A DNA stretch of 64,000 bases from assembly GCA_965279035.1 (NCBI GenBank), contig OZ257142.1, positions 1,801,239 through 1,865,238 of the forward strand, given 5' to 3'. Under the pieces are notes generated by a model. That model was not told the DNA's origin and searched no databases. It was given only the letters and a program-made list of their open reading frames with translations. A program made the position numbers and the translations under genes. Every line of letters begins with the position of its first letter. Position 1 is the first letter of the stretch. This document shows, piece after piece, positions 12,919 through 39,624 of this stretch. This stretch comes from Bacteroidia bacterium. Lineage in GTDB: Bacteria; Bacteroidota; Bacteroidia; M30B66.

Positions 12919-13866
12919 TTAAAACAAGTCTTCAGTCCAACGCATCGACGGGCGTTTTTCATTGAGTTTTCCTAGAATAAAACCAAGCGTGAATTCATGT
13001 GCACCGCCAGTTCTATTAGTTAAATGAGAAATTGTGTAATCGTATGAATAAGCTGCGGAAAAGTGTTTTCCGGTATAGCCAAGCATTCCAATGACTGCAT
13101 CTCCTTTTCGAATGGCACAACCAGCTTTCCATTTTCCATAGCGATACGAAATGCTTGGTAACAGCTGGTGAAATTTTTGTTCTTTTATATAAAGCATGTT
13201 AATATAAAGCCCGCTAATACGTTTACCTTCATGTTGAAAAATGCGCAATGAAGCATGAGCAGTATGGCGAATGGGAAGGCGCGAATCTGAAGTGAAACTG
13301 ATATTCGGTTGATTTATGTTTGCTGCTGAATAACCAATTAAATATCGTTTTGCATGTATCACAAGTCCAGCATTTAGCAAAGCATAATGTACAATTGGAT
13401 TTGAAATAGTTTCAGTTGAACTGTAGATAAAACCAGTGTGCGAGTCAATTTGATCACCAAATATGAGTTTTGAGAAATCAATCTTTTTTGTTGCAATGGA
13501 TGCCGATACTCCAAACCGAATACTTAAGCTTTTGTAAATCTTAAATGAGCGGGCGAGACCAATTCCAATGTTATTCGAAATGAGTGATCCACTTCCAGCA
13601 TTATCATACGTACAAAATGTCCCTAAATCAATGGGTAATTTCGCAAAACTGAAATCAGCTGCAATGTTGGTTGTATAAAACGAACCCGGTATAGAAGGCC
13701 ATTGAATGCGCTGAGCTGCTTGAATACGAATAGCTCCGCTGCTTCCTGTAAAAGCTGGATTGGTATATGTCGCAGTTCCATTATACTGTGTAAATGCTGG
13801 GTCTTGCGCATGTAGAATGGGTGTTATTAAAAGAAATATACCCAATAATTTAAACGATGTTCTCAT
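12919..13866 (-). CDS. Type IX secretion system membrane protein, PorP/SprF family
   Basis: Signal peptide followed by the family-typical QDPAFTQY...TNPAFTG N-terminal motif. 315-aa beta-barrel-like protein. Confidence 0.8.
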   Translation of the reverse strand: MRTSFKLLGIFLLITPILHAQDPAFTQYNGTATYTNPAFTGSSGAIRIQAAQRIQWPSIPGSFYTTNIAADFSFAKLPIDLGTFCTYDNAGSGSLISNNIGIGLARSFKIYKSLSIRFGVSASIATKKIDFSKLIFGDQIDSHTGFIYSSTETISNPIVHYALLNAGLVIHAKRYLIGYSAANINQPNISFTSDSRLPIRHTAHASLRIFQHEGKRISGLYINMLYIKEQKFHQLLPSISYRYGKWKAGCAIRKGDAVIGMLGYTGKHFSAAYSYDYTISHLTNRTGGAHEFTLGFILGKLNEKRPSMRWTEDLF

Positions 13867-13966: not shown

Positions 13967-15371
13967 GTAATCAGTACTGTCCGGTTAAAGTTTAAATCAG
14001 AAAAAAGGAGCGACCATTTCGATCACTCCTTTTGTGATTATTTTTGAGTTACGACACACCAAAATAATCATGAGTAAAAGTAAATATTTTACCGGACAGC
14101 CGATTTACAGTCAACTCCTTTCTTATCTGCCTCAGACGAAAGTAAAGAACATAGCTGATGAGCATAACGCTGATAGGTATTATAAGAACTTCAGGACTTA
14201 TACGCACCTAGTAACGATGCTTTACGCAATCTTTAATCGGTGTACAGGTATCCGAGAAGTGACCTCAGGCCTACTTGCCTGGGAAGGCAGGATACAGCAT
14301 TTAGGAATCAACTACTTTCCCAGAAGGAGCACGATTTCAGATGCAAATACCAGTCGACCAGCCGATGTCTTTGAAGATATTTACTACTGGCTTTATGACC
14401 GATACAAGCATTTTTTACCGGACAGCCGAAGTAAAATCGCATCCCGGCTTTATATTGTTGACTCGACAACGATTCAGTTGTTTCAGGAAGTTTTGAAAAA
14501 TGCCGGTCGTAATCCCGCCGATGGTAAGCGCAAAGGCGGTATTAAGGTGCATACTTTAATGAGGAGTGATCAAGACGTGCCTTGCTTGATAAGGTTCTCT
14601 GCTGGAGCTGGAGCCGACAGCCCATTTCTGCAGAACATACACCTGCAACGTGGGTCCATTGTGGTGTTTGATCGTGGTTATAATGATTACAAGCAATACA
14701 ACCGTTTCTCGGAAGAAAATGTCACATGGGTGACCCGATTACGAAACAACACCGTGATCAAAGTCCTGCGGGAAAAGAAAATTTCAGACAAGGAAAAGCA
14801 GAACGGAATTTTGCTCGACCAGATTATAGAAATGGGCCACACCAAGCACAATAACAATACACGAGTGAAGGCACGTCTTATAAAATATGAGGACAAAAAA
14901 TCGAAGAGGATATTTGAATTCATAACCAATAACAATCAATTCAAACCCTCCTCAATCGCACTGTTTTATAAAAATCGTTGGCAGATCGAATCGCTATTTA
15001 AGCGTATCAAACAGAACTATCCGATGCAAAGCTTCCTTGGAGAGAGCGAAAATGCGATCAAAATCCAAATCTGGTGTGCCCTGATCGCTGACCTTGTCTT
15101 AAAAATTGTCAAAGCAAGAGCTGGTAAAAACTGGTCGTTTTCAAATCTTGCAGCCATGGTCAGGCTACATTTGATGACCTATATCAACCTTTTTGAATTC
15201 CTCATCAATCCTGAAAAATCGCTAATTAGAAATCAAATTAAATCCTTTCAACTGCCATTGTTCCCTCCATAGGGGGCTTTATTTTAAATAAATACCATCA
15301 ACACCCGCATTTACTGCAACTACAGAAGGTAAATCATGCAATCTCAATTTTAACCGGACAGTACTGATTAC
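13967..15371 (+). mobile_element. IS4-family insertion sequence with ~23-28 bp terminal inverted repeats
   Basis: Left end gtaatcagtactgtccggttaaa (13967-13989) is the exact reverse complement of the right end tttaaccggacagtactgattac (15349-15371). A possible 5-bp flanking direct repeat aattc lies at 13962-13966 and 15373-15377. The element carries one DDE transposase ORF. Confidence 0.8.
14061..15272 (+). CDS. IS4-family DDE transposase
   Basis: Catalytic-region motifs YIVDSTTIQLF, VVFDRGYNDY and YKNRWQIESLFKRIKQ (the conserved RWxIE..F..LK block of IS4 transposases). The likely start is MSKSKYFTG at 14061, inside the longer track ORF. Confidence 0.8.
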   Translation, partial: KIIMSKSKYFTGQPIYSQLLSYLPQTKVKNIADEHNADRYYKNFRTYTHLVTMLYAIFNRCTGIREVTSGLLAWEGRIQHLGINYFPRRSTISDANTSRPADVFEDIYYWLYDRYKHFLPDSRSKIASRLYIVDSTTIQLFQEVLKNAGRNPADGKRKGGIKVHTLMRSDQDVPCLIRFSAGAGADSPFLQNIHLQRGSIVVFDRGYNDYKQYNRFSEENVTWVTRLRNNTVIKVLREKKISDKEKQNGILLDQIIEMGHTKHNNNTRVKARLIKYEDKKSKRIFEFITNNNQFKPSSIALFYKNRWQIESLFKRIKQNYPMQSFLGESENAIKIQIWCALIADLVLKIVKARAGKNWSFSNLAAMVRLHLMTYINLFEFLINPEKSLIRNQIKSFQLPLFPP

Positions 15372-18905: not shown

Positions 18906-21900
18906 TTATCGAATGATCAATTTACCACTGGCTTCTGATTTCTTAGAAGTCACTTTGTAGTAGTACATTCCAGCAGCATATCCATGAGCATCAAACACCG
19001 TTGCTTTTCCAGATTCTGCATTTAATTCGGCAACAATTTCTCCCAATACATTGTAAATCTGAATCCGTGAATTTCCATTATCTGGAGTATTCACAAAGAA
19101 CTGAGTGCTACCATTAAATGGATTCGGATATACACTCACCATCGTTCCATTTTGAACATTTTCTAGTCCTGCAGAACGATCAATAGTATGAACCGTTGTA
19201 TTTGTTCTCACAGGAACATTAAAATCGAAATAGATATCAGCAAAATTATTTAAGACTGTTCCATCCAACTGATTCTGAACAGGATCAATACTAAACGATA
19301 CAAAGCCAATGCTACCAATTGGATCGGAAGTGCTATCGGGTAACATGATGTTATTAAATGTCCAACGAATGACACGCGTTGCTTGATCAATTTGAACGCT
19401 ATAATTATCTGAAGCGGCAACCATGCTAAATGTTTCAATTAAGAAATCATCGCTAAGTGTATCAACCAATACTACATTCACCGCAGGAGCCATTCCCGTA
19501 TTTTGGAAACGAATAGTATACGATAAACGAGTATTTGGAAGAATACTTCCTTCTTCTCCTATACCAGCTGGTACTCCTTGTTTATCGTTTGGATCCCAAG
19601 AACCAACAACCACTTGATGTAATGTATCAATGTTGTTCGAGGGATAACTATCATTCAAAGGTGTAACTACGACTGTATTATTTACAGGCGTACCCAATAC
19701 AAGTGAAGTAGGAGCAGGGGTGTTTTGATAGATATAAGTACATTGTCCAGGAGCAAGGTTAGTAAACGTCCAACTAGCTGTATTTCCAGCTGCATTAAAC
19801 GTTGTTGGTGCTGGACTAAATACACCCGCACTGCTGATTGCTAATTGTGGATCCCAATAGTAATTAAACGTTCCCGATTGTGCTGTTACTCCATTGTTGC
19901 AATAACTTAAATACGTCATAACCGGAAAACCTGGAGTGACAGTAGATATATGCGTAATAGAGGCCGATAGATCTTGTAAATTAGGATCAGCCCACAATCC
20001 GAAGTTATAACCACTGTATGTTTGACCAATGGTGTTTGCAATAACATTGTATGTATAAGGTGAAGCTGGAACTGAATACGAATATCCATTTCCAGGATAC
20101 ATGAGGCTGATCATATACGTTCCGGGGATGATGTTCAACATATAATGTCCATTGTAATCAGTATAGGTCCAGTAATTACCAATTTGAATGGCTTTGTAAG
20201 GTGCACCGGTTTCTCCTGTATCTTGAACTCCATTGTTATTGGCATCGTAAAATACATTTCCACTAATAACTACTGCCTGATTCTGATAACCGAAATCAAA
20301 TCCTGTTTGATCAGCAGTTCCAGTTGTACTGAAAGTATATCCACCACCTATCGAAGGAAGTGTTGGAACATATAAGTTTTGCCATATATACGATGTAATT
20401 GAATAATTTCCTGCAAATACATCAAATGAATAATGACCACTTGAATCGGTTGTCGTCCAAATACATGAAGTAGAATCTTGGATTGATCCCGTATTCAAAC
20501 ACAATTGTACATACGAATTGATAAACGGATTTTCATTCGGTTCGAATAATCCATTTCCATTTGCATCATCCCAAACATAACCTGAAACATTATCCGAATT
20601 CAATGTTCCCAAATCAATATTCACACAGGCGCTGTCCATACAAACTCCATCTGCATACACACATATTTGATGAACTCCAGCTGTGAGATAAGTTATTTCA
20701 GCTTGTCCATTTACTATTTGTTGCCATGATTGATCACTCGACAATGAATAATAAAGTTGTGGATCAAGATTGTTTACTATAACACTAACCGTATTTCCAG
20801 TTATCTGAGTTGTTAAATCAATTTGATAGGTACAAGGAACATCAACATATAAACAAGTTTGTTCGCTACAACCTAAAGAATTTACTGCCGTTAAACACAG
20901 TTGGTGATTTCCTTCTGGCATTGGGTAATTAAAACTTGCAGTTGTATTAGAAAGTGGAGCGCCATCCAAAGACCAACTGTAAGAAGTCCATGATTGGGCA
21001 CTTGTTGAGCTAATTTGCCAGCTACCATTGTTTTGATTTACTGCAGCAATAGATAAATCGGTACAAGAAATTTGAGCATTCCAGCCATTACTTACTACAG
21101 TGAAATCAGATGTAAAATGAAATGTTAATGATCCATCATTTGCTGTGGAAGTATAACTAATCGGACCCGTGATTGCTCCATTTAAGTTTGCTAAAATTTG
21201 ACTTGAAGTAGATTGCCCATTATGAATAGCTAAATAATCATAATTGGTTTCTAAATCATACGAATTAAATGTAACGCGCAATTTTGAGCCAGGTGTTGAA
21301 GGATAAAGTGTCAACGTATAGTTTTCATTATTCAAATACGCCGCAGATAAATTACCGGAATCAAAAAATTGAGCATTGCAAGTAGTTTGATTTCCAGTAT
21401 GCATCAGTAATTGTGGGCCTCCTGTTTGTGTGCATCCTACATATACAACACCCGTTACCACTTGGTTACATCCACAATTATCGCTTACAGTTAATATAAC
21501 TGAATAGCTTCCAGGTTGAGTATAAGTAGCCGTAAAGGATGGTCCAGCTCCTGTTTGATTTTGGGTTTGCCATAAATACGTGTAAATTCCACATCCACCA
21601 TTTATTAGTGGGGTAAACGTTGCAGTAAGTCCATTGGTTGTGGATATAATTTGAGGGAAGAAATTAACACATGGATTAATGGTAATCTGTTGGCAATATT
21701 GTCCCGAACAACCATTTACATCAGTCACAGTTAAACAAGCTGTATATGTACCTGGGAAAGGATAATTATATATTGATCCTCCGGTATCGGCTGTAACAAC
21801 AGTACCATCTCCATAATTCCAAGTATAGGTATAGGGTGCTTGTCCACCAGAAACACTTGGGTAGAATTCAAAAACATTACCACCAAAGCCATACGATTGA

Positions 21901-22763
21901 AAGGAAACAGGAAGGGATAAACACGAAGTAGTAACAACGGGTTGACAAAGTGTATCGGTGCAACCATTGGCATCAGTTGCAGTTAAACATAAAAGGTATG
22001 TTTGATTCACGTTGTTATAGTGGTGAGTTGCAGTAAATGCAGATGTTAAAATTGCATCTTGGATTGCTCCATCGCCATAATCAATATGCAAAAGAACCGG
22101 CAAAGCAGATGTATTACTAAATACGACTAATGCTAAATCTTGTTGATTAATTTGTGGTTGAGCAGTAATGAAATTGTTTGCACATGGACCATTCGTTATG
22201 TTAAATGAATTACAAGTAGTATCAGTGCAACCGTTAGCGTCAGTTACAGTAAGGCAAACCGAATAATATCCAGTAGGAAATGTTTGTTCAACCATTGGTG
22301 CAGTAGAAATGAAGCCGTTACTGAAAACCCATTCGTATGTAATGGGTAATACAGCATTGCTTACTTCAACACTATCTAATATGACTAAGCCATTCGGAAG
22401 TGCTGTGGTTAAATAAGTTGTATTGATGTTACAGTTAACACCGCTATTCACTTGGATGGTATAAATTCCATAGGCACACCAACTCGTTTGAAGAGAATCG
22501 TAAATTGTTAGTTCAACAATATAAACTCCATTGTTCGGATAAAAGTGAGTAGGGAATTGGCCGTAACTTGAAGAACCATCGCCAAAATTCCATACATAAA
22601 TTGAATTACCAGAAGGAGCTTGGATTGTAGTTCCTACACTAATCGTATTGCCGTTTTGTTGGAGCAAATCGATAGGGGCGGAGGTCTGACATTGAGAAAA
22701 CGCAGGAGCTGCGAAAGCCATCAGAGCAAGAATGACCGAAAATACGTAGCGATTGAATTGCAT
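18906..22763 (-). CDS. T9SS-secreted cell-surface protein with PKD-like and SdrD-B/Cna-B-like domains (1285 aa)
   Basis: Signal peptide. Repeated CLTVTDANGCTD PKD-type motifs. GYVWDDANGNGLFEPNE SdrD-B-like module. C-terminal Por secretion tail (VYPNPFNGSTQFF...GMYYYKVTSKK...KLII). Confidence 0.8.
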   Translation of the reverse strand: MQFNRYVFSVILALMAFAAPAFSQCQTSAPIDLLQQNGNTISVGTTIQAPSGNSIYVWNFGDGSSSYGQFPTHFYPNNGVYIVELTIYDSLQTSWCAYGIYTIQVNSGVNCNINTTYLTTALPNGLVILDSVEVSNAVLPITYEWVFSNGFISTAPMVEQTFPTGYYSVCLTVTDANGCTDTTCNSFNITNGPCANNFITAQPQINQQDLALVVFSNTSALPVLLHIDYGDGAIQDAILTSAFTATHHYNNVNQTYLLCLTATDANGCTDTLCQPVVTTSCLSLPVSFQSYGFGGNVFEFYPSVSGGQAPYTYTWNYGDGTVVTADTGGSIYNYPFPGTYTACLTVTDVNGCSGQYCQQITINPCVNFFPQIISTTNGLTATFTPLINGGCGIYTYLWQTQNQTGAGPSFTATYTQPGSYSVILTVSDNCGCNQVVTGVVYVGCTQTGGPQLLMHTGNQTTCNAQFFDSGNLSAAYLNNENYTLTLYPSTPGSKLRVTFNSYDLETNYDYLAIHNGQSTSSQILANLNGAITGPISYTSTANDGSLTFHFTSDFTVVSNGWNAQISCTDLSIAAVNQNNGSWQISSTSAQSWTSYSWSLDGAPLSNTTASFNYPMPEGNHQLCLTAVNSLGCSEQTCLYVDVPCTYQIDLTTQITGNTVSVIVNNLDPQLYYSLSSDQSWQQIVNGQAEITYLTAGVHQICVYADGVCMDSACVNIDLGTLNSDNVSGYVWDDANGNGLFEPNENPFINSYVQLCLNTGSIQDSTSCIWTTTDSSGHYSFDVFAGNYSITSYIWQNLYVPTLPSIGGGYTFSTTGTADQTGFDFGYQNQAVVISGNVFYDANNNGVQDTGETGAPYKAIQIGNYWTYTDYNGHYMLNIIPGTYMISLMYPGNGYSYSVPASPYTYNVIANTIGQTYSGYNFGLWADPNLQDLSASITHISTVTPGFPVMTYLSYCNNGVTAQSGTFNYYWDPQLAISSAGVFSPAPTTFNAAGNTASWTFTNLAPGQCTYIYQNTPAPTSLVLGTPVNNTVVVTPLNDSYPSNNIDTLHQVVVGSWDPNDKQGVPAGIGEEGSILPNTRLSYTIRFQNTGMAPAVNVVLVDTLSDDFLIETFSMVAASDNYSVQIDQATRVIRWTFNNIMLPDSTSDPIGSIGFVSFSIDPVQNQLDGTVLNNFADIYFDFNVPVRTNTTVHTIDRSAGLENVQNGTMVSVYPNPFNGSTQFFVNTPDNGNSRIQIYNVLGEIVAELNAESGKATVFDAHGYAAGMYYYKVTSKKSEASGKLIIR

Positions 22764-23121: not shown

Positions 23122-24240
23122 ATGGGACAAATAATAGATTTCTTCCTCAATTTATTTGGAGCTGAGAGTTGGCCAGCTCGATGGTCATGTGGTAATTGGA
23201 CAGGTTTTCATGGATGGTTATATATCATTTCAAGTTTTTTAATTGCATCAGCCTATTTGCTTATTCCGTTCATTTTATACAAATACATCAAACTGAAAGC
23301 AGGTATTCCATTTCTGCGAGTTATTTGGTTATTTATATTTTTTATTCTTTCATGCAGTGCTACTCATCTGTTCGATGGAATTATTTTTTGGATTCCCGTC
23401 TATCGTATAAATGCTCTCATTCTTTTTATAACAGCACTTTTTTCTTGGGCAACTGTTTTTGCACTAATAAGAGCTTTGCCTCAGGTTATTCTTCTAAAAA
23501 CACCTAGACAATCGGAAGCGATTATTGAAGAGAGAACGTTTGAACTCAATAAATCAAATCAATTGTTGCTCAAAAAAAACCAAGAATTGGATAATTATGT
23601 TTATGCAGCTTCGCACGATTTAAAATCACCTATAAATAATTTGGAAGGATTAGTTGGAATTTTATTGGATGATATTGAAGAAGGAAAAATACCTGACAAA
23701 CGAATTGTTGAAAAAATACAACATTCCGTATTTCGTGTTCAGAATACAATTATGAATTTAACAGAGGTAATACGCTTAGAAAAGAACCCATATGATGATT
23801 TGGTAGAAATTTCTTTTCAGGATATTCTCGATGAAATTCTTTTAGAAAACGAAGAACTTATTCAAAGATTCCAAACGATTATACATGTAAACTTTGAAGA
23901 AATTGAATTTGTTTATTCGAGAAATGGATTTAAAAGTATTTTGTATAATTTAATTTCAAACGCAATTAAATACTCATCACCTGAACGTCGCTCAGAAGTT
24001 TGGATACGAACATATAGCGAACAGTCAAAATTGGTGCTCGAGGTTGAAGATAATGGTCTTGGGATCGACTTGAATCGACATCAAAATAAACTATTCAAAA
24101 TGTTTAAGCGTTTGCACGATCATATAGAAGGAACTGGTATTGGTTTATATAGTATAAAGCAACTGGTTGAACGTAAAGGTGGTAGCATTGAAATAGAGAG
24201 CACCATAAACGTAGGTTCTACTTTTCGGGTTCGATATTAA
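23122..24240 (+). CDS. Sensor histidine kinase with N-terminal ethylene-binding-domain (ETR1-like) membrane module
   Basis: Residues ~30-140 align to the Arabidopsis ETR1 transmembrane ethylene-binding domain: ours YIISSFLIASAYLLIPFILYKYIK...FFILSCSATHLFDG...ITALFSWATVFALIRALP versus ETR1 [24 protein letters not shown]...FIVLCGATHLINL...TAKVLTAVVSCATALMLVHIIP. The Cu(I)-ligand Cys and His of helix 2 are conserved (CSATH vs CGATH). It then continues directly into HisKA (SHDLKSP) and HATPase_c (N-box LISNAIKYS, DNGLGID, GTGIGL). Confidence 0.8.
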   Translation: MGQIIDFFLNLFGAESWPARWSCGNWTGFHGWLYIISSFLIASAYLLIPFILYKYIKLKAGIPFLRVIWLFIFFILSCSATHLFDGIIFWIPVYRINALILFITALFSWATVFALIRALPQVILLKTPRQSEAIIEERTFELNKSNQLLLKKNQELDNYVYAASHDLKSPINNLEGLVGILLDDIEEGKIPDKRIVEKIQHSVFRVQNTIMNLTEVIRLEKNPYDDLVEISFQDILDEILLENEELIQRFQTIIHVNFEEIEFVYSRNGFKSILYNLISNAIKYSSPERRSEVWIRTYSEQSKLVLEVEDNGLGIDLNRHQNKLFKMFKRLHDHIEGTGIGLYSIKQLVERKGGSIEIESTINVGSTFRVRY

Positions 24241-24304
24241 AATTGATTATTCCAATTTTTTCAGAGGTTTTTTTGATTTACTTGCATACACCCAATCCTA
24301 AATC

Positions 24305-24718
24305 ATGAACTCACCTTATTCTTGTGTTCTCATTGTTGATGACGATGAAACCAGTATTTTCCTAAGCGAAATCATTCTTGAACGAAATCGATTTGCAAGT
24401 GAAATCCATTCTTCAGCTAATGGTGAACAAGCTATTCAATTTCTATTGGATCATTGCTCAGAGATCGCTTCAAGTATCACAGGTTGCCCTGAAGTTATTT
24501 TGCTCGATATTAATATGCCAGTAATGGATGGCTTCGAATTCCTTGAAGTATTTACTACGAATGCAGCTATTTCAAATTCATCGAAAGTTGTTATTTTGAC
24601 CTCATCTAATAATCCTCGGGATATTGAAATGGCTCACAAATTTGGAATTAATACATTTATAAATAAGCCTCTAACTGATGATAAAATCCTTCAAATACGC
24701 GATATGCTTCAAAATTAA
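24305..24718 (+). CDS. Single-domain response regulator (REC only, CheY-like)
   Basis: VLIVDDDE...ILLDINMPVMDG...KVVILTSS...K receiver-domain motifs with no output domain. 137 aa. Confidence 0.85.
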   Translation: MNSPYSCVLIVDDDETSIFLSEIILERNRFASEIHSSANGEQAIQFLLDHCSEIASSITGCPEVILLDINMPVMDGFEFLEVFTTNAAISNSSKVVILTSSNNPRDIEMAHKFGINTFINKPLTDDKILQIRDMLQN

Positions 24719-24761: not shown

Positions 24762-25043
24762 ATGAAAAGAATTCTGCCACTTATTATTCTCATTGCAGGT
24801 TTTAGTTCTTGCAAGAAATGCTACGATTGTACTAAAAAATGTGGGTCTTGCCACAATGGAGCTATTACAGTTGCCGGTTGTACTGGTGATGATAACTTGA
24901 ATGGAGCTTCAGTAGATTCTTGGAAAATTTACCTTGAAACTCAAGGATACACTTGTGCCTATGACAATGTTACTGAAGAAGCATGTGGCAAGGATGACAA
25001 AACAAATAAAGAAAAGTCCTATTACGAATGCGTTGCTCAATAA
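24762..25043 (+). CDS. Small Cys-rich lipoprotein, paralog 1 (9 Cys)
   Basis: Signal peptide ending FSSC, then CKKCYDCTKKCGSCHNG...GYTCAYD...ACGKDDKTNKEKSYYEC. It shares its cysteine scaffold with the next ORF. Confidence 0.5.
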   Translation: MKRILPLIILIAGFSSCKKCYDCTKKCGSCHNGAITVAGCTGDDNLNGASVDSWKIYLETQGYTCAYDNVTEEACGKDDKTNKEKSYYECVAQ

Positions 25044-25079: not shown

Positions 25080-25370
25080 TTGATTTACTTCAGAAGCCTC
25101 ATAGGAATTCTCCTTTTGTTATGTTCAATAAGTTCATGCAAGAAGTGTTTTAATTGCTCAGATCATTGCGTTCGATGTTTAAAAACGCCCTATAAATACG
25201 AAGCCTGTGGCGGAGAAGATTTTTTAAATAAAATGTCTGTTTCCGAATGGAAGGAGTATAAAATGAGCATAGGATATACCTGCATTGATATATATAAGAA
25301 TGATGAAGTGTGTGGTGTAGATGCGAAAAATGAGAAGGAAACACAGTATTATCTCTGTGAACCGAAATAA
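25080..25370 (+). CDS. Small Cys-rich lipoprotein, paralog 2 (9 Cys)
   Basis: Signal peptide ending ISSC, then CKKCFNCSDHCVRC...ACGGEDF...GYTCIDI...VCGVDAKNEKETQYYLC. The Cys spacing matches paralog 1. Confidence 0.5.
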   Translation: MIYFRSLIGILLLLCSISSCKKCFNCSDHCVRCLKTPYKYEACGGEDFLNKMSVSEWKEYKMSIGYTCIDIYKNDEVCGVDAKNEKETQYYLCEPK

Positions 25371-25645: not shown

Positions 25646-26131
25646 TTGGATTCTAAGCTTCAGGAAGAATTTTTAAACCTCATTAATCAACATCGAGGAA
25701 TACTACATAAAGTGGTAAATCTCTATATTGATGATAGTATTGAAAGAGAAGATTTAATTCAAGAAATTCTTTTTCAAGCATATCGAGGATTTGATCGATT
25801 TCGTGGAGAGTCTTTATTTTCAACCTGGCTTTATCGCGTTAGTCTCAATACTGTATTTTCATATCGCAAGAAAAATCAACGAAGAATGGAAGCGGAATCG
25901 AATGCAATCCCAGAAGTCGTAGTTGATTTACCTTCGGATGCTTCGGAAGAACTTTATTATCATATTCGTCAACTCGACCCAATAAAACGAATGATCATTT
26001 CTTTGCATCTCGATGGATTTGGAAACAATGATATTGCTTCAATTACTGGTATGAATGCAAATGCCATCGGGGTGAAATTATTTCGTATTCGTGAGGAATT
26101 AACACAAAAATTAAATGCCCGTCATGACTGA
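25646..26131 (+). CDS. ECF-subfamily RNA polymerase sigma-70 factor
   Basis: Region 2 (LIQEILFQAYRGFDRFRGESLFSTWLYRVSLN) and region 4 HTH (DIASITGMNANAIGVKLFRIREEL). Confidence 0.85.
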   Translation: MDSKLQEEFLNLINQHRGILHKVVNLYIDDSIEREDLIQEILFQAYRGFDRFRGESLFSTWLYRVSLNTVFSYRKKNQRRMEAESNAIPEVVVDLPSDASEELYYHIRQLDPIKRMIISLHLDGFGNNDIASITGMNANAIGVKLFRIREELTQKLNARHD

Positions 26132-26735
26132 TCTTCAAGAACTTTGGGATAAGAGAAATAATAAAGAAATCAGCTCGCCCGTTTTGGAAGAGAAAGATAT
26201 TGCTCAACTAAAAGAAAGCATTAAATCTCCTATTCAAATCTTAAAAAGAAATTTCATCATTAATACAGCCTTTGCTCTTTTAATTCTCCTGGGATTTATT
26301 TATTTATTCTTTACTGTTGATTGGTTCTTGTTTCGACTATTTACTGCAATCCTTTGTATTTCTTATGTAGCTGCGATTGTTTTTAATGTGATTATCTATA
26401 AACGGTATCTTCAGGTACAATCTCCTGATCAACCAATAATTACTTATTTAACATTCCTTGTTGAAGGAATGAGAAAATCGTTTAAAGCAGCCGAAATAAT
26501 TGCTTTAGCTATTTATCCAATTGCTATGACCGCTGGTTTTTTATTACCATTAAGTTTAGAAAACAAATTATCACTTCTATACAACGAACCAATTGTCCAG
26601 GGAATTTTAATAGCTTGTTATGTACTATTAACTCCACTATGCTGGTATTTAGCTAGATGGATGAATAAAGTTGCTTTCGGAAATTATGTTGATCAATTGG
26701 ATGAATTGCTATTCGATTTAAAGAAAATTGATTGA
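26115..26735 (+). CDS. Putative membrane anti-sigma factor
   Basis: Its start overlaps the sigma-factor stop by 17 bp. A cytoplasmic N-terminal segment is followed by 4-5 TM helices. No recognisable catalytic domain. Confidence 0.4.
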   Translation: MPVMTDLQELWDKRNNKEISSPVLEEKDIAQLKESIKSPIQILKRNFIINTAFALLILLGFIYLFFTVDWFLFRLFTAILCISYVAAIVFNVIIYKRYLQVQSPDQPIITYLTFLVEGMRKSFKAAEIIALAIYPIAMTAGFLLPLSLENKLSLLYNEPIVQGILIACYVLLTPLCWYLARWMNKVAFGNYVDQLDELLFDLKKID

Positions 26736-27690: not shown

Positions 27691-28986
27691 TTAAGCCTTA
27701 TAAAGACCCAGTCGCATCTTCACTTTTCGAATAGCAGCTCCTGCTAAATACGTCATGGTCATTTCTTGTCCGCGACTCTTTTGCTGATCAATTCGAAAAA
27801 TATTATAGAAGTTGGTGTAGTTTCCTCCTCTTGGTTTTTGAATACGACCATTGATTTGAGTTGTATCTAATCCATAAGGAAATTTCATACAAAATAAAAG
27901 CGATTCGGAAGATAGTGAAACATCGCATTTATCATAAGGAATAGGCGTTTCCTTTAATTTGTCATTTAAAGAAAGTAGATAGGTTTTATTGTAGTCGTGC
28001 AGGTGTATATGTGCAGGTTTAAGCAAACTTTTTACAATGAAGTTATTGGTCTTATTTAAATTGTTGATGAAGACATCTGCTTGCTTTTGTAGTTCAACTA
28101 AATCAACGGGTACGTTTTTAATTAATTTATCCTGATTTAAATCGATGTTTTTTAAATCGTTCATATATTTTTGAATAGAATCGGTCGAATCCCATTTCTC
28201 AGGATACGTATATTCTTCACCATTATACAATACAACTGCTTGAGCTTTTGTATTATTTTTTATGTATTGATATGTTTTCTCTGCCGTATTGATGCTGTCG
28301 TTTAAATAATAATTTTCTTCGTGGCAGAAGTAAACATAACTAGCAATTGGTATGATAGCTTTGGGTTCGAAAACGTCACATTGAAACTTGAGTGCTTCTA
28401 ATTTATCATCAGCAATTTTCTGTCTAACTTCTTTTTCATCTTTGTTACCGGCCCAATAGGCATAAGAAAACTGAGTTAATAGTACATCTACTTTTCCAAC
28501 TATATTCTTAATGTAATTGGCTGGACCAATATTTCGAACTCCACAATCATTCGTATTTAAAAATGTGTATCCACCACCTTTATATACTATCCATGAATCA
28601 CCTTCTCCATAATATTCGCACAGTACTTTAAAGTCTTTACCTAAGTCGTAGTATGTGCCTTTTTGCATTTCAATTACTTCCTTAAACCCAGCTTTCCTAC
28701 AATAATTAGCCACTCGTCCATCAATTGTATGTTGGAATAATACAGTAATATTCTTCTTGTATTCAGCAGGAATCAACTTTAAATTGGGAGGATAAAAATG
28801 ATCTGGATGTTCATGTGAAAACCAGATATAATTTATTTTTTTAAAATCTTCATAACTGAAACGGGATTTGCTAATTAAATCCCATCCATTATTAAAAACA
28901 CGTCCTTCAAGCCAAGGATCTGCAATAATTTTCACTCCTTCATGTTCAACAATAAACGAGGAATGATTTACGAATTGGATTTTCAT
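27691..28986 (-). CDS. MBL-fold metallo-hydrolase with ~200-aa C-terminal extension
   Basis: WFSHEHPDHF (HxHxDH zinc-binding motif) near the N-terminus. Beta-lactamase-fold pattern. Confidence 0.65.
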   Translation of the reverse strand: MKIQFVNHSSFIVEHEGVKIIADPWLEGRVFNNGWDLISKSRFSYEDFKKINYIWFSHEHPDHFYPPNLKLIPAEYKKNITVLFQHTIDGRVANYCRKAGFKEVIEMQKGTYYDLGKDFKVLCEYYGEGDSWIVYKGGGYTFLNTNDCGVRNIGPANYIKNIVGKVDVLLTQFSYAYWAGNKDEKEVRQKIADDKLEALKFQCDVFEPKAIIPIASYVYFCHEENYYLNDSINTAEKTYQYIKNNTKAQAVVLYNGEEYTYPEKWDSTDSIQKYMNDLKNIDLNQDKLIKNVPVDLVELQKQADVFINNLNKTNNFIVKSLLKPAHIHLHDYNKTYLLSLNDKLKETPIPYDKCDVSLSSESLLFCMKFPYGLDTTQINGRIQKPRGGNYTNFYNIFRIDQQKSRGQEMTMTYLAGAAIRKVKMRLGLYKA

Positions 28987-28989
28987 TTG

Positions 28990-29670
28990 AATTATATTTT
29001 TAGAGTTGAATCCTGAAACTTCTTAACTGATATTTTAATAGATACCAAAAAGTCATTCACCTGCAAAATATAACTCAAAAAGTAATTTGTCAATAGTTAA
29101 ACTCAGATTAATATTTATTTTATATATTATTGTATATGTAACATAGTGAGGAAGATACAAAGATATTAATTACATTAGTAAGTTTTATATACATATAAAA
29201 GACAATAAATGCATCTATGATATGTGTGAGTGGTGGTTGTGTATAGCATGTTCAATTGTGAATTTTAAAACAATCTATTAAGTGACATCATGTTCGGCAA
29301 AGTGCATGTCAAAGAGATAATATAGCTTGTTAAATGGATTAATACTACCACAACATTGGGTTTTGGCGATCCATTTACCTTTGAAATTAATAATGAAATG
29401 AAGTTTAGCGTTGGTTTATTTCGAGATTATTTGAATAAACTGAATCTATTCCTATCTATTAAAAATCTAGGTTTTGAGCTGTTGTTTCAACTAAATTGAA
29501 ATCCAATAATCCATCAATTTTAAATTCTTTTAAATTAGTTTAGATGAATTAAATTCATTTTAAAATTAGTATTGAATTAACAAAACTACTATTAAATTTA
29601 TTTAAACAAATTTAACCATAATCTCAAGAGTACCTTATTAACAAAAATTATCCAATTAAAATGTTTTCTA
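28990..29670. other. AT-rich (~80% A+T) non-coding tract
   Basis: No ORF longer than 60 aa. Much higher A+T than the flanking genes. It lies directly upstream of the minus-strand flotillin-operon tail. Confidence 0.5.
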
Positions 29671-29674
29671 TTTA

Positions 29675-30163
29675 TTAAATACTCGACAATTTATTCAGTT
29701 CTGTTATAAAATCTGTTTTTATATTCTTCTCGTTTAAATCTTCATAAATCTGAGAATATACTTCATAATTCACCTTATTTGAATCCATTTTAATTAGAAA
29801 AGAAATAAAGTGAACACGCTTCACATCTTTCTGAGTTCCATTTAATGATACTAAGAAATCGGCTTCATTGCATTGCGTTAATATTAATACTTCATTCGGA
29901 TTTAGTTGAATTATATGTAAAAACAAAAATTTATCAATTCGCGTATTTTCTTGAATAGATAAAAGTTTCTTAAATAAATCTGGAAAAGAGGTTATATCTA
30001 TTTTGCCGTAAATAGCTGTTAAATTGGCAGCAATTTTACTTGCATGTGCAGGATTTTTTCTGACTTTACGAACGTGATTATCTGCATTGGCTTTTTGAAT
30101 TAAATTCTTAATTCCAATAGCAATTAATGAGATGATTAATATTAAAAGAACGACTACTTTCAT
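29675..30163 (-). CDS. Hypothetical membrane-anchored protein (N-terminal TM helix), last gene of the flotillin operon
   Basis: MKVVVLLILIISLIAIGI N-terminal anchor. Co-directional with the three upstream genes, 7 bp gap. Confidence 0.45.
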   Translation of the reverse strand: MKVVVLLILIISLIAIGIKNLIQKANADNHVRKVRKNPAHASKIAANLTAIYGKIDITSFPDLFKKLLSIQENTRIDKFLFLHIIQLNPNEVLILTQCNEADFLVSLNGTQKDVKRVHFISFLIKMDSNKVNYEVYSQIYEDLNEKNIKTDFITELNKLSSI

Positions 30164-37079: not shown

Positions 37080-38060
37080 CTATTTGCTTTTGTGACGCAC
37101 TACACTCAATGGCCCATCAATGCGGTTCCCATCGGGTAAAATCAATTCGAATTGATACGTTCCACTGGGCAAACCAGCACCATCCCAATCGTTTCGATAA
37201 TTATCCGTTTTAAAAACAACCAGGTCTTTTTTATTTCGAATCGTTAAACGACTATAGCGAGGCAATCCTTCGATATAAAATAAATCATTAAATCCATCTC
37301 CATTGGGTGTAACCACTTCGGGAACGTGCATGCGACCTGCTGGTAATATTTCACCCGAAGGAGGAGCGATAACCTGCACTTCGGTTGGTTTTTCTACTTC
37401 AGGTGTACAGCTACCTAAATACACATTGTCCACATAGAGATAGGCCAAACGAATGTATTGTGTTTGATCATTTGGCTGAAGATTCGTACTTGCATCGTTA
37501 CGGAAATTACCAATGGTGACAAACTGTTCACCTCCTTTAGCTTTGAATGTAAAGGATAGGATTTTCCAAGTTTTTCCTGTATCCGAAATGGCAAGGTATT
37601 TTTGACTTTTGAATTCTGGTTCGCGGATAATGGTGTTCCAGTCGTTCGAGCGTATGGAATCTTTGCTAAGCGCGATGCCCAATTCATCGGTAAAATAGCT
37701 CGATTTTTCTGCTGCCGAAACGGAGATTTTTAAACACAATTCTTCACCCGGAATGAGCATTCTGCTTAATCGAACTTCGAGGTATTCTCTGAAATTGGGA
37801 TTGTCGGCATCGTAAAGTATCAAGCCGGCAAACTGTTGTCCTTCAGCAGCCTTTTGCTTTCCATGTGGCACCTCTCCCGGTTTGATTAAATCGGGACTAC
37901 CAATTCCTGCAGGAAACCAAGGACTTGCCTGCTCAATATTTCCTGAATATTTCGATTTTACAGGCTTCAACGAACGTTCGAAGCTCCCATTGGGTATCAA
38001 ATTCTGCCCACAAACAGGCAGCACAGAAAGTAGAAAAATTATGGTCAGGAAGCGAATCAT
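37080..38060 (-). CDS. T9SS cargo protein with type-B (gliding-motility-associated) C-terminal domain
   Basis: Signal peptide. C-terminal VTPNGDGFNDLFYIEGLPRYSRLTIRNK...NYRNDWDG...GTYQFEL matches the TIGR04131-type CTD. Confidence 0.7.
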   Translation of the reverse strand: MIRFLTIIFLLSVLPVCGQNLIPNGSFERSLKPVKSKYSGNIEQASPWFPAGIGSPDLIKPGEVPHGKQKAAEGQQFAGLILYDADNPNFREYLEVRLSRMLIPGEELCLKISVSAAEKSSYFTDELGIALSKDSIRSNDWNTIIREPEFKSQKYLAISDTGKTWKILSFTFKAKGGEQFVTIGNFRNDASTNLQPNDQTQYIRLAYLYVDNVYLGSCTPEVEKPTEVQVIAPPSGEILPAGRMHVPEVVTPNGDGFNDLFYIEGLPRYSRLTIRNKKDLVVFKTDNYRNDWDGAGLPSGTYQFELILPDGNRIDGPLSVVRHKSK

Positions 38061-38643: not shown

Positions 38644-39624
38644 ATGAAGAAGAACTTTATTGGCATTGATGTGTCAAAATTAACGCTGGATGTTTATTTA
38701 CATAATCAATCTCAGCACAACGTCTTTAGCAATGATATCGATGGTTATACACTGATGCTTGCTTGGTTAAAGCAGTTGAAAGTGAGTGTAAAATCGATGG
38801 CCATTTGCTTTGAGCATACGGGTATTTATAGCGAGGATTTATCTGTGTTTTTGAGTGAAAAGAAGATCTGTTTTTACATGGAATCCTCCTTAAACATTAA
38901 GTATTCTATTGGACTTCAGCGAGGCAAAAATGATAAGATAGACTCCCAAAGAATCGCAAATTTCATTGCATTACATGCAGAACAGCTTAGCCCAACGGTA
39001 CTATCAAAGAGTGCTGTAGCGCAGCTGAGAAAGCTCTTGAGTATGCGTTCGCATCTGGAAAAAGAGAAGATAGGCATCAAAAACAGACTTAAGAACTCAT
39101 CAAAAACCACTGGTGTAGATATAGTTTTTCAAATCGAAACGGATCTGTTAAAGACCTTTAACGATAAACTTAAACTGGTAGAAGAGGAAATCAAATCATT
39201 GATAAAGTCAGATGATAATCTTCGTCAAATCGACGAATTAGTTCAATCTATAAAAGGAGTTGGACCAGTGTCGAGTTGGTATTTAATCGCCACAACAAAT
39301 GGCTTTGAATACTTCGACAATGCTCGTCAATATGCATGTTATAGTGGAATAGCTCCATTCGAAAAATCATCAGGAACATCCATAAAAGGGAAAACACAAA
39401 CCGATAGAAGATCAAATCGAAAAATCAATGGAGTATTAACAATGGCGGCGCGTTCGGCAGTATTAAATAACACCGAAATGAGAGAATATATGGAGCGTAA
39501 AATCCAGGAAGGAAAACATTATAATTGTGCACTCAATGCAGTCAAAAACAAACTTGTATCAAGAGTATTTGCTGTCGTAAAAAGAAAAACACCCTATGTT
39601 GATCTAAAAAAATACGCTGCATAG
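38644..39624 (+). CDS. IS110-family transposase
   Basis: N-terminal FIGIDVSKLTLDVY (DEDD/RuvC-like N-domain). The C-terminal KGVGPVSSWYLIATTNGF...SGIAPFEKSSGTS block is typical of IS110/IS116/IS902 transposases. Confidence 0.85.
   Translation: MKKNFIGIDVSKLTLDVYLHNQSQHNVFSNDIDGYTLMLAWLKQLKVSVKSMAICFEHTGIYSEDLSVFLSEKKICFYMESSLNIKYSIGLQRGKNDKIDSQRIANFIALHAEQLSPTVLSKSAVAQLRKLLSMRSHLEKEKIGIKNRLKNSSKTTGVDIVFQIETDLLKTFNDKLKLVEEEIKSLIKSDDNLRQIDELVQSIKGVGPVSSWYLIATTNGFEYFDNARQYACYSGIAPFEKSSGTSIKGKTQTDRRSNRKINGVLTMAARSAVLNNTEMREYMERKIQEGKHYNCALNAVKNKLVSRVFAVVKRKTPYVDLKKYAA

What the first reader, a model, noticed from the sequence alone, without database searches (positions are those of the whole stretch)
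23122..24718. Bacteroidota two-component system whose sensor carries a plant-type ethylene-binding domain
The first ~140 aa of the histidine kinase align along all three transmembrane helices with the Arabidopsis ETR1 ethylene-binding domain, including the Cu(I)-coordinating Cys and His (CSATH vs CGATH) and the conserved Pro/Tyr/Asp positions of helix 1. Unlike plant or cyanobacterial receptors, no GAF domain is present and the kinase has all catalytic motifs. Its partner is a REC-only regulator, which suggests a phosphorelay or CheY-like output rather than transcription. Ethylene-binding-domain proteins outside plants and cyanobacteria are essentially uncharacterised, and in a gliding T9SS bacterium this could couple a gas signal to surface behaviour.
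Basis: partly seen in the sequence, partly recalled or inferred. Interest (0 to 1): 0.85.

Follow-up and report, generated by a model that had tools for sequence, protein, structure and literature searches.

The report
Bacteroidota kinase with variant ethylene-binding domain
This is a real bacterial sensor kinase whose membrane domain belongs to the plant ethylene-receptor family, but it lacks two residues (Asp25, Lys91) that the plant receptor needs for tight ethylene binding and signal relay, so it is a natural variant of a known, already annotated family, not a newly found plant-type receptor.

Summary
The two genes are real. The kinase is 23122-24240 (372 aa) and a receiver-only regulator is 24305-24718 (137 aa). 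Kinase residues 30-123 match Pfam ETR1_N (PF25487) at 83 bits against a cut-off of 27. There are three membrane helices, no GAF, PAS or HAMP domain, and all kinase motifs are present.

The copper ligands are in place (Cys78 and His82, equivalent to ETR1 Cys65 and His69). So are Tyr45, Ile48, Pro49 and Ile75.

ETR1 Asp25 is Ser38 here, and its bridge partner Lys91 is Leu101. In ETR1, D25A abolishes copper and ethylene binding, D25N lowers affinity about 100-fold, and K91M leaves 6% of binding.

The gene belongs to a compact (~375 aa) Bacteroidota clade that has Leu at position 91. It includes Cytophaga hutchinsonii.

The only conserved neighbour is the roughly 135-aa receiver gene. The Cys-rich genes and the sigma factor do not co-occur with the kinase beyond one near relative.

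The family is large (5,813 cluster representatives). A bacterial member with the same receiver-only partner, AzoEtr1, has been characterised.

Most likely this is a Cu(I)-dependent membrane sensor of ethylene or a similar small ligand, with weaker or faster binding than ETR1. Interest is moderate.

The parts
23122..24240 (+). Sensor histidine kinase, 372 aa: ETR1_N-family membrane domain fused directly to a HisKA/HATPase transmitter
   Evidence: ORF. Pfam PF25487 83 bits and HATPase_c 72 bits. The identical protein P0230 is in NCBI/ENA on a 4.2-Mb contig. About 110 orthologs share the architecture.
23122..23202 (+). N-terminal segment, aa 1-27, predicted periplasmic. It holds the start of the clade motif WPARWxCGxW; the second motif, FHGWLYI, continues to aa 35, into helix 1. 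Cys23 and His30 are each kept in 40 of 41 orthologs. The segment lies outside the Pfam model.
   Evidence: Alignment A2. The two motifs served as scan patterns and hit at least 600 stretches in genomes. The loop charge pattern fits an N-out topology. The role of this segment is inferred only.
23203..23493 (+). Three transmembrane helices (aa 28-58, 65-87, 94-124), the ethylene-binding-domain homolog
   Evidence: AlphaFold2 pLDDT is 85-95 across this region in the full-length model. The same helices appear in the domain-only model. The Pfam match covers aa 30-123.
23233..23235 (+). Ser38 codon (AGT), at the position of ETR1 Asp25
   Evidence: MAFFT and BLASTP alignments. In 255 relatives the position is D 151, S 74, N 25, E 4, Q 1.
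23353..23367 (+). CSATH motif: Cys78 and His82, equivalent to the ETR1 Cu(I) ligands Cys65 and His69. Thr81 is equivalent to Thr68.
   Evidence: His is invariant (255 of 255) and Cys is present in 250 of 255 relatives.
23422..23424 (+). Leu101 codon (CTT), at the position of ETR1 Lys91, the partner of Asp25 in the polar bridge
   Evidence: Every relative with Ser or Asn at position 25 has Leu here (74 of 74 and 25 of 25).
23503..23784 (+). DHp (HisKA) helical hairpin, aa 128-221, with the phospho-accepting His165 (23614-23616). It continues from helix 3 after a 3-residue break.
   Evidence: Secondary structure. H-box ASHDLKSP. Ser164 and His165 are invariant in A2. Pfam HisKA is weak at 21.9 bits.
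23800..24237 (+). Catalytic ATP-binding domain, aa 227-372, with N box (Asn280), G1 (Asp310-x-Gly-x-Gly), F box and G2 (Gly337-x-Gly-x-Gly)
   Evidence: The best solved relative by sequence is the bacteriophytochrome RpBphP2 kinase domain 8f71 (E=3e-26). Foldseek matches HK853, YycG and similar kinase cores.
24305..24718 (+). Single-domain response regulator, 137 aa, receiver only, with phospho-acceptor Asp68 (24506-24508)
   Evidence: Pfam PF00072. Conserved Asp12-14, Asp68, Ser100/101 and Lys121. The closest solved relatives are the phytochrome regulators RcpB, Rcp1 and RcpA. It is the only conserved neighbour of the kinase (46 of 80 loci).

Best explanation
This is a self-contained two-gene phosphotransfer system.

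Shown:
- The kinase is anchored by a three-helix membrane domain that is a true homolog of the ETR1 ethylene-binding domain. It keeps the Cys/His pair that holds Cu(I) in ETR1.
- Helix 3 runs almost straight into the dimerisation/phospho-acceptor helix, with no intervening domain.
- The kinase and the receiver-only regulator are of the phytochrome-associated (Cph1/Rcp1-like) type.
- The gene belongs to a compact Bacteroidota clade in which ETR1 Lys91 is Leu. ETR1 Asp25 is usually Ser there, and sometimes Asp or Asn.

Inferred:
- The domain still binds Cu(I) through Cys78 and His82, possibly with Ser38 hydrogen-bonding to the His.
- It detects a small membrane-permeant ligand of copper. Ethylene is the leading candidate.
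- Because the Asp-His-Lys network is missing, binding should be much weaker and faster than in ETR1. That would make it a rapidly reversible sensor instead of a near-irreversible one.
- Ligand binding shifts helix 3 and so changes autophosphorylation at His165. The phosphate passes to Asp68 of the regulator.
- The regulator has no output domain, so it must act by binding another protein or by feeding a phosphorelay. The target is unknown.
For: - Family membership: PF25487 at 83 bits, BLASTP to a plant receptor at E=9e-12, and 5,813 related cluster representatives at E<=1e-3.
- Ligand-site residues: six of the seven ETR1 ethylene-binding residues are present. Among 41 orthologs of 38-73% identity, His82, Ile48 and Pro49 are invariant, and Tyr45, Ile75, Cys78 and Thr81 are nearly so. 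That level of conservation argues the site is in use.
- Variant signature: the Ser38/Leu101 pair appears in 74 cluster representatives. It is the only systematic difference from canonical relatives. A clade of 96 sequences, all with Leu91, is recovered with those two columns masked.
- Published basis for predicting weaker or faster binding: D25N lowers affinity about 100-fold yet still signals. Natural Asn variants are proposed as fast sensors. K91M keeps 6% of binding with normal copper binding (PMC10266040, PMC11971883).
- Direct helix 3 to DHp connection.
- Competent kinase and receiver motifs.
- Kinase-regulator pairing is conserved, with gaps of -40 to +22 nt in most loci.
- Precedent: AzoEtr1 with a 135-aa receiver-only partner (PMC11819568).
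Against: - In ETR1, D25A abolishes copper binding in vitro and ethylene binding. D25N, D25E and D25Q leave only residual copper binding. Ser was never tested, and Leu91 removes the second half of the network. The domain may therefore bind neither copper nor ethylene usefully.
- Position 25 varies (S/D/N/E) inside the Leu91 clade. This could mean relaxed constraint and not tuning.
- No binding data exist for any Bacteroidota member.
- No ethylene-related gene, copper-handling gene or conserved output gene lies nearby.
- I could not measure residue distances in the model.
Confidence: 0.5

Rival explanations
1. It is a canonical high-affinity ethylene receptor working like ETR1, SynEtr1 or AzoEtr1. 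Nanomolar ethylene would bind Cu(I) and switch the kinase.
For: - Strong ETR1_N match.
- Cys and His are in place, and six of seven binding residues are kept.
- It has the same kinase plus receiver-only layout as AzoEtr1, which does bind ethylene.
Against: - Asp25 is Ser and Lys91 is Leu.
- In ETR1, every tested loss of the Asp25 carboxylate removed detectable high-affinity binding in yeast, and K91M or K91A cut binding to 6% or 1%.
- AzoEtr1 and the other validated receptors keep all seven residues.
Confidence: 0.12
2. The domain has been re-tuned to sense something other than ethylene through the same Cys/His (copper) site. Candidates are membrane Cu(I) supply itself, redox state, or another copper-binding volatile such as CO, NO, larger alkenes or organosulfur compounds.
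For: - The metal ligands are strictly kept while the two residues that set ethylene affinity and relay are replaced across a whole clade.
- PMC10266040 notes that a Cu(I) Cys/His site with an Asp-His-Lys network is also proposed for a mammalian organosulfur odorant receptor, so the chemistry is not specific to ethylene.
Against: - Apart from positions 25 and 91, no pocket column differs systematically from canonical relatives, so there is no sign of a reshaped pocket.
- No copper-homeostasis genes lie nearby.
- No experimental precedent for a non-ethylene ligand in this family turned up in the papers I searched.
Confidence: 0.25
3. The domain is a ligand-blind relic that serves only as a membrane anchor and dimerisation module. 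The kinase would be constitutive or controlled by a partner protein.
For: - Two residues essential in ETR1 are lost.
- Position 25 drifts among S, D, N and E in the clade.
- The protein has no other sensory domain.
Against: - An anchor would not need an invariant His82, Ile48 and Pro49 and near-invariant Cys78, Tyr45, Ile75 and Thr81 at 38-73% overall identity.
- All 74 Ser-type representatives keep the full Y-I-P-I-C-H set.
- Position 25 stays small and polar and never becomes hydrophobic.
Confidence: 0.1

Closest known systems
Arabidopsis ETR1/ERS1 ethylene-binding domain (Pfam PF25487 ETR1_N)
   Same: - Three-helix membrane domain at the N-terminus.
- Cys and His copper ligands on helix 2 (CSATH against CGATH).
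- Tyr, Ile and Pro on helix 1 and Ile on helix 2.
- Thr, Ser and Thr on helix 3.
- About 27-33% identity.
   Different: - Asp25 is Ser and Lys91 is Leu.
- No GAF domain and no fused receiver.
- The kinase has all catalytic motifs and a dedicated bacterial regulator.
- There is a different, longer N-terminal segment (WPARWxCGxW...FHGWLYI) in place of the plant Cys4/Cys6 stretch.
AzoEtr1 / AzoRR of Azospirillum brasilense (PMC11819568)
   Same: A bacterial ethylene-binding-domain histidine kinase followed immediately by a receiver-only regulator of about 135 aa, probably co-transcribed.
   Different: - AzoEtr1 is 525 aa with a PAS domain between sensor and kinase. It keeps all seven binding residues and has proven 14C-ethylene binding.
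- The window protein is 372 aa with no PAS, has Ser/Leu at positions 25/91, and is untested.
SynEtr1 (slr1212) of Synechocystis and the Asn25 variants of cyanobacteria
   Same: - A bacterial ethylene-binding-domain kinase that signals by phosphotransfer.
- The transmitter here is phytochrome-type (closest solved relatives are the RpBphP2 kinase and RcpB/Rcp1 regulators).
- The Asn25 variants are a published precedent for natural loss of the Asp carboxylate.
   Different: - SynEtr1 carries a phytochrome-like photosensory domain, which is absent here.
- The published variants are Asn. The papers I could read report Asp 93.55% and Asn 3.67% of 1,221 sequences and do not mention Ser.
- In my sample the Asn variants also carry Leu91 (25 of 25).
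Canonical Asp/Arg ethylene-binding-domain kinases of other Bacteroidota (Spirosoma, Larkinella, Mucilaginibacter, Hymenobacter)
   Same: Same phylum, same N-terminal motif, often the same compact architecture and downstream receiver gene. They share 34-41% identity with the window kinase.
   Different: They keep Asp25 and a basic residue (Arg or Lys) at position 91, so they are better candidates for true ethylene receptors than the window protein.

Membership tests
ETR1_N / ethylene-binding-domain family (PF25487) | Profile match above the curated gathering score | tested here: met
   83 bits against a cut-off of 27, E=1.9e-23, model positions 2-95 of 97. The precomputed PF25487 hit is present in nearly all orthologs.
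ETR1_N / ethylene-binding-domain family (PF25487) | Three N-terminal transmembrane helices | tested here: met
   AlphaFold2 helices 28-58, 65-87 and 94-124, with pLDDT 85-95.
ETR1_N / ethylene-binding-domain family (PF25487) | Cu(I)-ligand Cys and His on helix 2 (ETR1 Cys65, His69) | tested here: met
   Cys78 and His82 align in MAFFT and BLASTP alignments. A structure-based alignment was not possible because afdb50 was unavailable and no solved structure of the fold was found.
Functional ethylene receptor (criterion used in the field: the seven ETR1 residues required for ethylene binding) | Asp25, Tyr32, Ile35, Pro36, Ile62, Cys65 and His69 all conserved | tested here: not met
   Six of seven are conserved. 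Asp25 is Ser38. The criterion is as stated in PMC11819568 and PMC6944256.
Functional ethylene receptor | Basic residue at ETR1 Lys91 forming the polar bridge to Asp25 for signal relay | tested here: not met
   Leu101. The role of Lys91 is from PMC10266040.
Functional ethylene receptor | Saturable ethylene binding and Cu(I) binding | not testable with these tools
   Needs 14C-ethylene and BCA-Cu(I) assays on the expressed domain.
Plant-type receptor architecture (ethylene-binding domain, GAF, kinase, with or without receiver) | GAF domain after the membrane domain | tested here: not met
   No GAF hit even at E<=10. Helix 3 joins the DHp helix after 3 residues.
AzoEtr1-type bacterial ethylene two-component system | Ethylene-binding-domain kinase with a receiver-only regulator immediately downstream | tested here: met
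   The receiver gene lies 64 nt downstream and is conserved in 46 of 80 loci. The PAS domain of AzoEtr1 is absent here.
HisKA-type sensor histidine kinase | H box His plus N, G1, F and G2 boxes | tested here: met
   His165, Asn280, Asp310-x-Gly-x-Gly, Phe325 and Gly337-x-Gly-x-Gly. HATPase_c scores 72 bits. HisKA is below cut-off in this protein but above it in most orthologs.
CheY-like single-domain response regulator | Acidic pocket, phospho-acceptor Asp, Thr/Ser and Lys, and no output domain | tested here: met
   Asp12-14, Asp68, Thr99/Ser100 and Lys121. The protein is 137 aa and hits PF00072 only.
Phytochrome-associated (Cph1/Rcp1-like) transmitter pair | Closest relatives of both the kinase core and the regulator are phytochrome-linked | tested here: inconclusive
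   The best PDB sequence matches are the RpBphP2 kinase 8f71 (E=3e-26) and RcpB 1k66 (E=6.9e-18). JGI labels orthologs 'sensor kinase Cph1'. This is similarity only; no phylogeny was made.

The most novel reading that the evidence does not exclude
The compact Leu91 clade of Bacteroidota, with Ser, Asn or Asp at ETR1 position 25, is a distinct functional class of copper-based membrane sensors. Evolution removed the Asp-His-Lys network and so converted a near-irreversible hormone receptor into a fast, low-affinity detector of ethylene or another volatile. A receiver-only regulator would then link it to surface behaviour (gliding, attachment, biofilm) in soil and plant-litter bacteria such as Cytophaga.
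Probability: 0.2. Interest if true: 0.65.

Novelty: new variant of a known kind. Interest (0 to 1): 0.4.

Why it matters
Ethylene sensing by bacteria is a young field with only two characterised bacterial receptors, SynEtr1 and AzoEtr1. Bacteroidota are major colonisers of roots and plant litter, yet none of the papers my searches returned discusses their receptors.

This locus shows two things. The phylum holds hundreds of such kinases. A sizeable, coherent subgroup has lost exactly the two residues that recent ETR1 work identified as setting ethylene affinity and relaying the signal.

That offers a natural experiment on the Asp25/Lys91 model. It also warns against calling every ETR1_N protein an ethylene receptor, and it points to a genetically tractable test organism, Cytophaga hutchinsonii. 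If the variants still respond to ethylene, they would extend the 'fast receptor' idea that was proposed for the cyanobacterial Asn variants.

Tried and rejected
- A homolog search with the N-terminal 150 aa alone returned only short proteins. The full-length search was needed to find the orthologs.
- The look-up of encoding contigs found no record for the window's own protein, and the listing of cluster members gave no name or accession. The species stays unidentified. The best species-representative genome hit is only 55% identical.
- Foldseek against AFDB was unavailable. Foldseek of the domain-only model against the PDB found nothing better than E=3.8, so no structure-guided alignment to ETR1 could be made. 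The full-length model only recovered kinase cores.
- The papers of Lacey & Binder 2016 and Wang et al. 2006 are not held, and the PNAS supplement is not held. The phylum list of earlier surveys and the frequency of Ser variants in the 1,221-sequence set could not be checked.
- The sigma-70 promoter and terminator scan is uninformative: 12 sites against 20 expected, and Bacteroidota promoters differ from the scanned consensus. Operon structure rests on spacing and synteny only.
- I tested the idea that the Cys-rich genes, the ECF sigma factor or the 1285-aa secreted protein are partners of the kinase, and rejected it. The Cys-rich genes and the 1285-aa protein are in 0 of 80 loci and the sigma factor in 1. 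A composition-based search for Cys-rich small ORFs found only out-of-frame noise.
- I tested whether the Ser type forms a single clade. It does not in an NJ tree with the two columns masked. The coherent unit is the Leu91 clade. The tree is short and noisy.
Full report
**1. What is there**

The window holds two same-strand ORFs at the stated coordinates. One is a 372-aa protein (23122-24240). The other is a 137-aa protein (24305-24718), 64 nt downstream.

Pfam places residues 30-123 of the first protein in PF25487 (ETR1_N, 'Ethylene receptor 1-like, N-terminal domain'). The match is E=1.9e-23 at 83 bits against a gathering score of 27, and it covers model positions 2-95 of 97. Residues 269-371 match HATPase_c at 72 bits. 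HisKA is just under its cut-off (21.9 against 26.9 bits). No GAF, PAS or HAMP hit appears even at E<=10. NCBIfam has no model for the N-terminus. The PDB sequence search matches only the kinase core.

The second protein is a receiver domain and nothing else (PF00072, E=2.7e-18).

A pairwise BLASTP of residues 1-140 against a database plant receptor fragment (Elaeis guineensis ERS1, P0015) gives E=9e-12 and 33% identity over 95 residues. The core observation is therefore real and far beyond chance.

**2. Anatomy**

AlphaFold2, run with 41 orthologs, gives a mean pLDDT of 82.6. The model shows:
- a short helix at residues 2-9;
- three long helices at 28-58, 65-87 and 94-124 (pLDDT 85-95);
- after a three-residue break, the DHp helix 128-186, which carries His165;
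- a standard catalytic domain.

The loop charges fit an N-out, C-in topology: three Lys in loop 1 and three basic residues after helix 3.

The kinase has the H box (ASHDLKSP, His165), the N box (Asn280), G1 (Asp310-x-Gly-x-Gly), the F box and G2 (Gly337-x-Gly-x-Gly). The regulator has Asp12-14, Asp68, Thr99/Ser100 and Lys121, all conserved in orthologs.

By sequence, the nearest solved relative of the kinase core is the bacteriophytochrome RpBphP2 kinase domain (8f71, E=3e-26). The nearest solved relatives of the regulator are the phytochrome regulators RcpB, Rcp1 and RcpA and bacteriophytochrome-linked receivers. JGI labels many orthologs 'sensor kinase Cph1'. The transmitter pair is thus of the phytochrome-associated type.

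**3.

I mapped the seven ETR1 residues that the field uses as the criterion for an ethylene-binding domain (stated in PMC11819568, and PMC6944256), plus Lys91.

| ETR1 residue | Window kinase |
|---|---|
| Asp25 | Ser38 |
| Tyr32 | Tyr45 |
| Ile35 | Ile48 |
| Pro36 | Pro49 |
| Ile62 | Ile75 |
| Cys65 | Cys78 |
| His69 | His82 |
| Lys91 | Leu101 |

They are confirmed independently by the BLASTP alignment to P0015 and at codon level.

The helix-1 Asp is not, and its bridge partner on helix 3 is lost as well.

My Arabidopsis ETR1 sequence was recalled from memory. It is 91% identical to database plant 'ethylene receptor' fragments, and the residue numbering agrees with the literature.

**4. Why those two residues matter**

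PMC10266040 and PMC11971883 report the following.
- Asp25 bonds to the copper-chelating His69 and to Lys91 on helix 3.
- D25A abolishes copper binding in vitro and ethylene binding.
- D25N, D25E and D25Q leave only residual copper binding.
- D25N lowers ethylene affinity about 100-fold but still signals in planta.
- K91M and K91A bind copper normally but keep only 6% and 1% of ethylene binding, and they disturb signalling.
- Asp25 and Lys91 coevolve (EVcouplings probability 0.997).
- In 1,221 domains, Asp is present in 93.55% and Asn in 3.67%. The authors interpret the cyanobacterial Asn variants as fast-release sensors.

Ser at this position was not tested or mentioned in the text I could read.

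**5. A clade feature, not a one-off**

The domain family is large. An exhaustive phmmer search of residues 1-140 against 1.84 billion cluster representatives found 5,813 hits at E<=1e-3 and 244 at E<=1e-30.

A full-length search found the window's own protein (P0230, from a 4.2-Mb NCBI/ENA contig, unnamed). It also found about 110 orthologs of 38-72% identity. Almost all are 370-380 aa with the same architecture. Named examples come from Bacteroidia, Chitinophagaceae, Cytophagaceae, Cytophaga hutchinsonii and Halocola.

Across 255 bacterial relatives:
- position 25 is D 151, S 74, N 25, E 4, Q 1;
- position 91 is L 135, R 80, K 33;
- every Ser (74 of 74) and every Asn (25 of 25) is paired with Leu91;
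- Asp pairs with Arg (80), Lys (31) or Leu (33);
- all 74 Ser-type sequences keep the full Y-I-P-I-C-H set.

Positions 25 and 91 are the only columns that differ systematically between the Ser type and the Asp+Arg/Lys type. The Ser type is 95% compact (340-400 aa). The canonical relatives have a median length of 521 aa.

An NJ tree with those two columns masked recovers one clade of 96 sequences, all with Leu91. Inside it, position 25 switches among Ser (the majority), Asp, Asn and Glu. Ser is not monophyletic. This tree is short and noisy.

Among 41 orthologs, His82, Ile48 and Pro49 are invariant. Cys78 is kept in 39 of 41, Tyr45 in 40 of 41, Leu101 in 39 of 41 and Ser38 in 32 of 41, with the remaining nine being Asp.

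**6. Distribution and context**

The best 80 loci carry Bacteroidota names: Cytophaga, Fulvivirga, Mucilaginibacter, Spirosoma, Larkinella, Fibrella, Hymenobacter, Pedobacter and Chitinophagaceae. There are two exceptions: one MAG labelled Bifidobacteriaceae, probably mis-binned, and one MAG (L079) labelled only 'bacterium'. The best hit is 55% identical, so the window's species is not among the representatives.

The nearest loci are Ser type. Most Spirosoma, Larkinella and Mucilaginibacter genes are the canonical Asp/Arg type.

Clustering all neighbouring ORFs shows one conserved neighbour only. It is a roughly 135-aa receiver-only gene directly downstream on the same strand, found in 46 of 80 loci and often overlapping the kinase stop codon.

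The other window neighbours tested (the two Cys-rich ORFs, the 68-aa ORF, the 206-aa membrane protein, the SnoaL and HxlR genes and the 1285-aa secreted protein) occur in 0 of 80 loci. The ECF sigma factor occurs in 1.

These neighbours do reappear, in full synteny, beside the 72%-identical ortholog P0232. That reflects close relatedness and not a functional link.

In C. hutchinsonii the kinase-regulator pair sits beside an unrelated, convergent HisKA_3/NarL-type system.

The window has no second ethylene-binding domain, kinase or receiver.

It does carry type IX secretion hallmarks, so 'T9SS Bacteroidota' is supported:
- PorP/SprF;
- three proteins with Por_Secre_tail, one of them a 7068-aa ORF;
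- one CHU_C protein;
- SusC-like TonB receptors.

Gliding was not tested.

**7. Mechanism**

*Shown:* the protein is a member of the ethylene-binding-domain family with intact metal ligands, a direct link from helix 3 to the DHp helix, a competent kinase and a dedicated receiver-only partner.

*Inferred:*
- The domain holds Cu(I) through Cys78 and His82. Ser38 may hydrogen-bond to His82.
- A small membrane-soluble ligand binds the copper. Ethylene is the best candidate.
- Helix 3 movement changes autophosphorylation at His165.
- The phosphate passes to Asp68 of the regulator.
- The regulator acts through protein-protein contact or a phosphorelay.

The Asp-His-Lys network is missing, so I expect much weaker and faster binding than in ETR1. 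This is the logic published for the Asn variants.

I give this reading about 0.5. The rivals are:
- a canonical high-affinity receptor (0.12);
- a re-tuned sensor of copper, redox state or another volatile (0.25);
- a ligand-blind anchor (0.10), which the strict conservation of the pocket residues contradicts.

**8. Comparison with what is known, and novelty**

The family and its presence in bacteria are known. Pfam and UniRef already annotate it in Bacteroidota. Reviews note many bacterial homologs with diverse outputs (PMC7700396).

AzoEtr1 is a characterised bacterial ethylene receptor with the same downstream receiver-only partner.

Full-text searches combining ethylene-receptor terms with 'Bacteroidetes' or 'Cytophaga hutchinsonii' returned no paper that discusses a Bacteroidota member, and the one cyanobacterial paper I checked does not mention them. 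None of the texts I read mentions a Ser25/Leu91 class.

I therefore file this as a new variant of a known kind, with moderate interest of 0.4. It fails the field's own seven-residue test for a functional ethylene receptor and should not be called one without binding data.

**9. Limits**

- No structure-guided alignment was possible: AFDB was unavailable, and no solved structure of the fold was found.
- The species is unidentified.
- Two key older papers and the PNAS supplement are not held.
- Only the top 150 of the 5,813 family representatives could be inspected, so the class frequencies apply to the query's neighbourhood and not to the whole family.

Noticed in passing
window 24762-25043 and 25080-25370 (+): Two tandem paralogous small genes (93 and 96 aa, 38% identical, E=8e-22). 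Each has a lipoprotein-type signal ending in SSC, followed by CKKC[YF][DN]C. Nine Cys are invariant across both copies and both copies of a syntenic relative (L083 7623-8209). There is no Pfam or NCBIfam family. They are absent from all 80 more distant kinase loci, so they are not partners of the kinase. Function unknown.
   Followed up: partly
window 23122-23226 (kinase aa 1-35): A conserved N-terminal motif, WP[AP]RWxCGxW...[TS]xFHGWLYI, lies mostly outside the Pfam ETR1_N model, which starts at aa 30. Cys23 and His30 are each kept in 40 of 41 orthologs. Proteobacterial relatives have MPHGYCFLW in the same place. The Cys may be the counterpart of the ETR1 Cys4/Cys6 disulfide that links the dimer, or an extra metal ligand. 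Untested.
   Followed up: partly
window 39951-61157 (+): A single 7068-aa ORF ending in a type IX secretion sorting domain (Por_Secre_tail, 29 bits). It is a giant secreted or surface protein. Only its last 500 aa were scanned.
   Followed up: partly
window 12919-13866 (-), 18906-22763 (-), 37080-38060 (-), 62037-62849 (-): Type IX secretion hallmarks: a PorP/SprF membrane protein, a 1285-aa PKD/CUB/SdrD_B/DUF7619 cargo with Por_Secre_tail, a CHU_C-tailed protein, and another Por_Secre_tail protein.
   Followed up: partly
window 14034-15272 (+) and 38644-39624 (+): Two transposase genes: one IS4-like (DDE_Tnp_1 with DUF4372) and one IS110-family (DEDD_Tnp_IS110 with Transposase_20). The second sits just upstream of the giant ORF.
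   Followed up: no
window 25646-26131 and 26115-26735 (+): An ECF-type sigma factor (regions 2 and 4_2) overlaps by 17 nt a 206-aa protein with no family hit; from reading the translation it looks membrane-embedded. This looks like a sigma/anti-sigma pair. It is syntenic in the closest relative and not linked to the kinase elsewhere.
   Followed up: partly
window 28001-30000: The lowest G+C in the window (0.28, against 0.33-0.42 elsewhere) spans the end of the 431-aa metallo-beta-lactamase-fold gene and the intergenic region after it.
   Followed up: no
L081 5565-8117 (Cytophaga hutchinsonii CP000383.1): In C. hutchinsonii the orthologous kinase-regulator pair is followed by a convergent second two-component system: a 632-aa HisKA_3 kinase and a 215-aa receiver-GerE regulator. 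Cross-talk is possible but this pairing is not conserved in other loci.
   Followed up: no
L017 (CAZNHL010000036.1): A MAG labelled 'uncultured Bifidobacteriaceae' carries a Bacteroidota-type compact ethylene-binding-domain kinase (40% identical, Asp/Arg type) with its regulator. This is probably a mis-binned contig.
   Followed up: no
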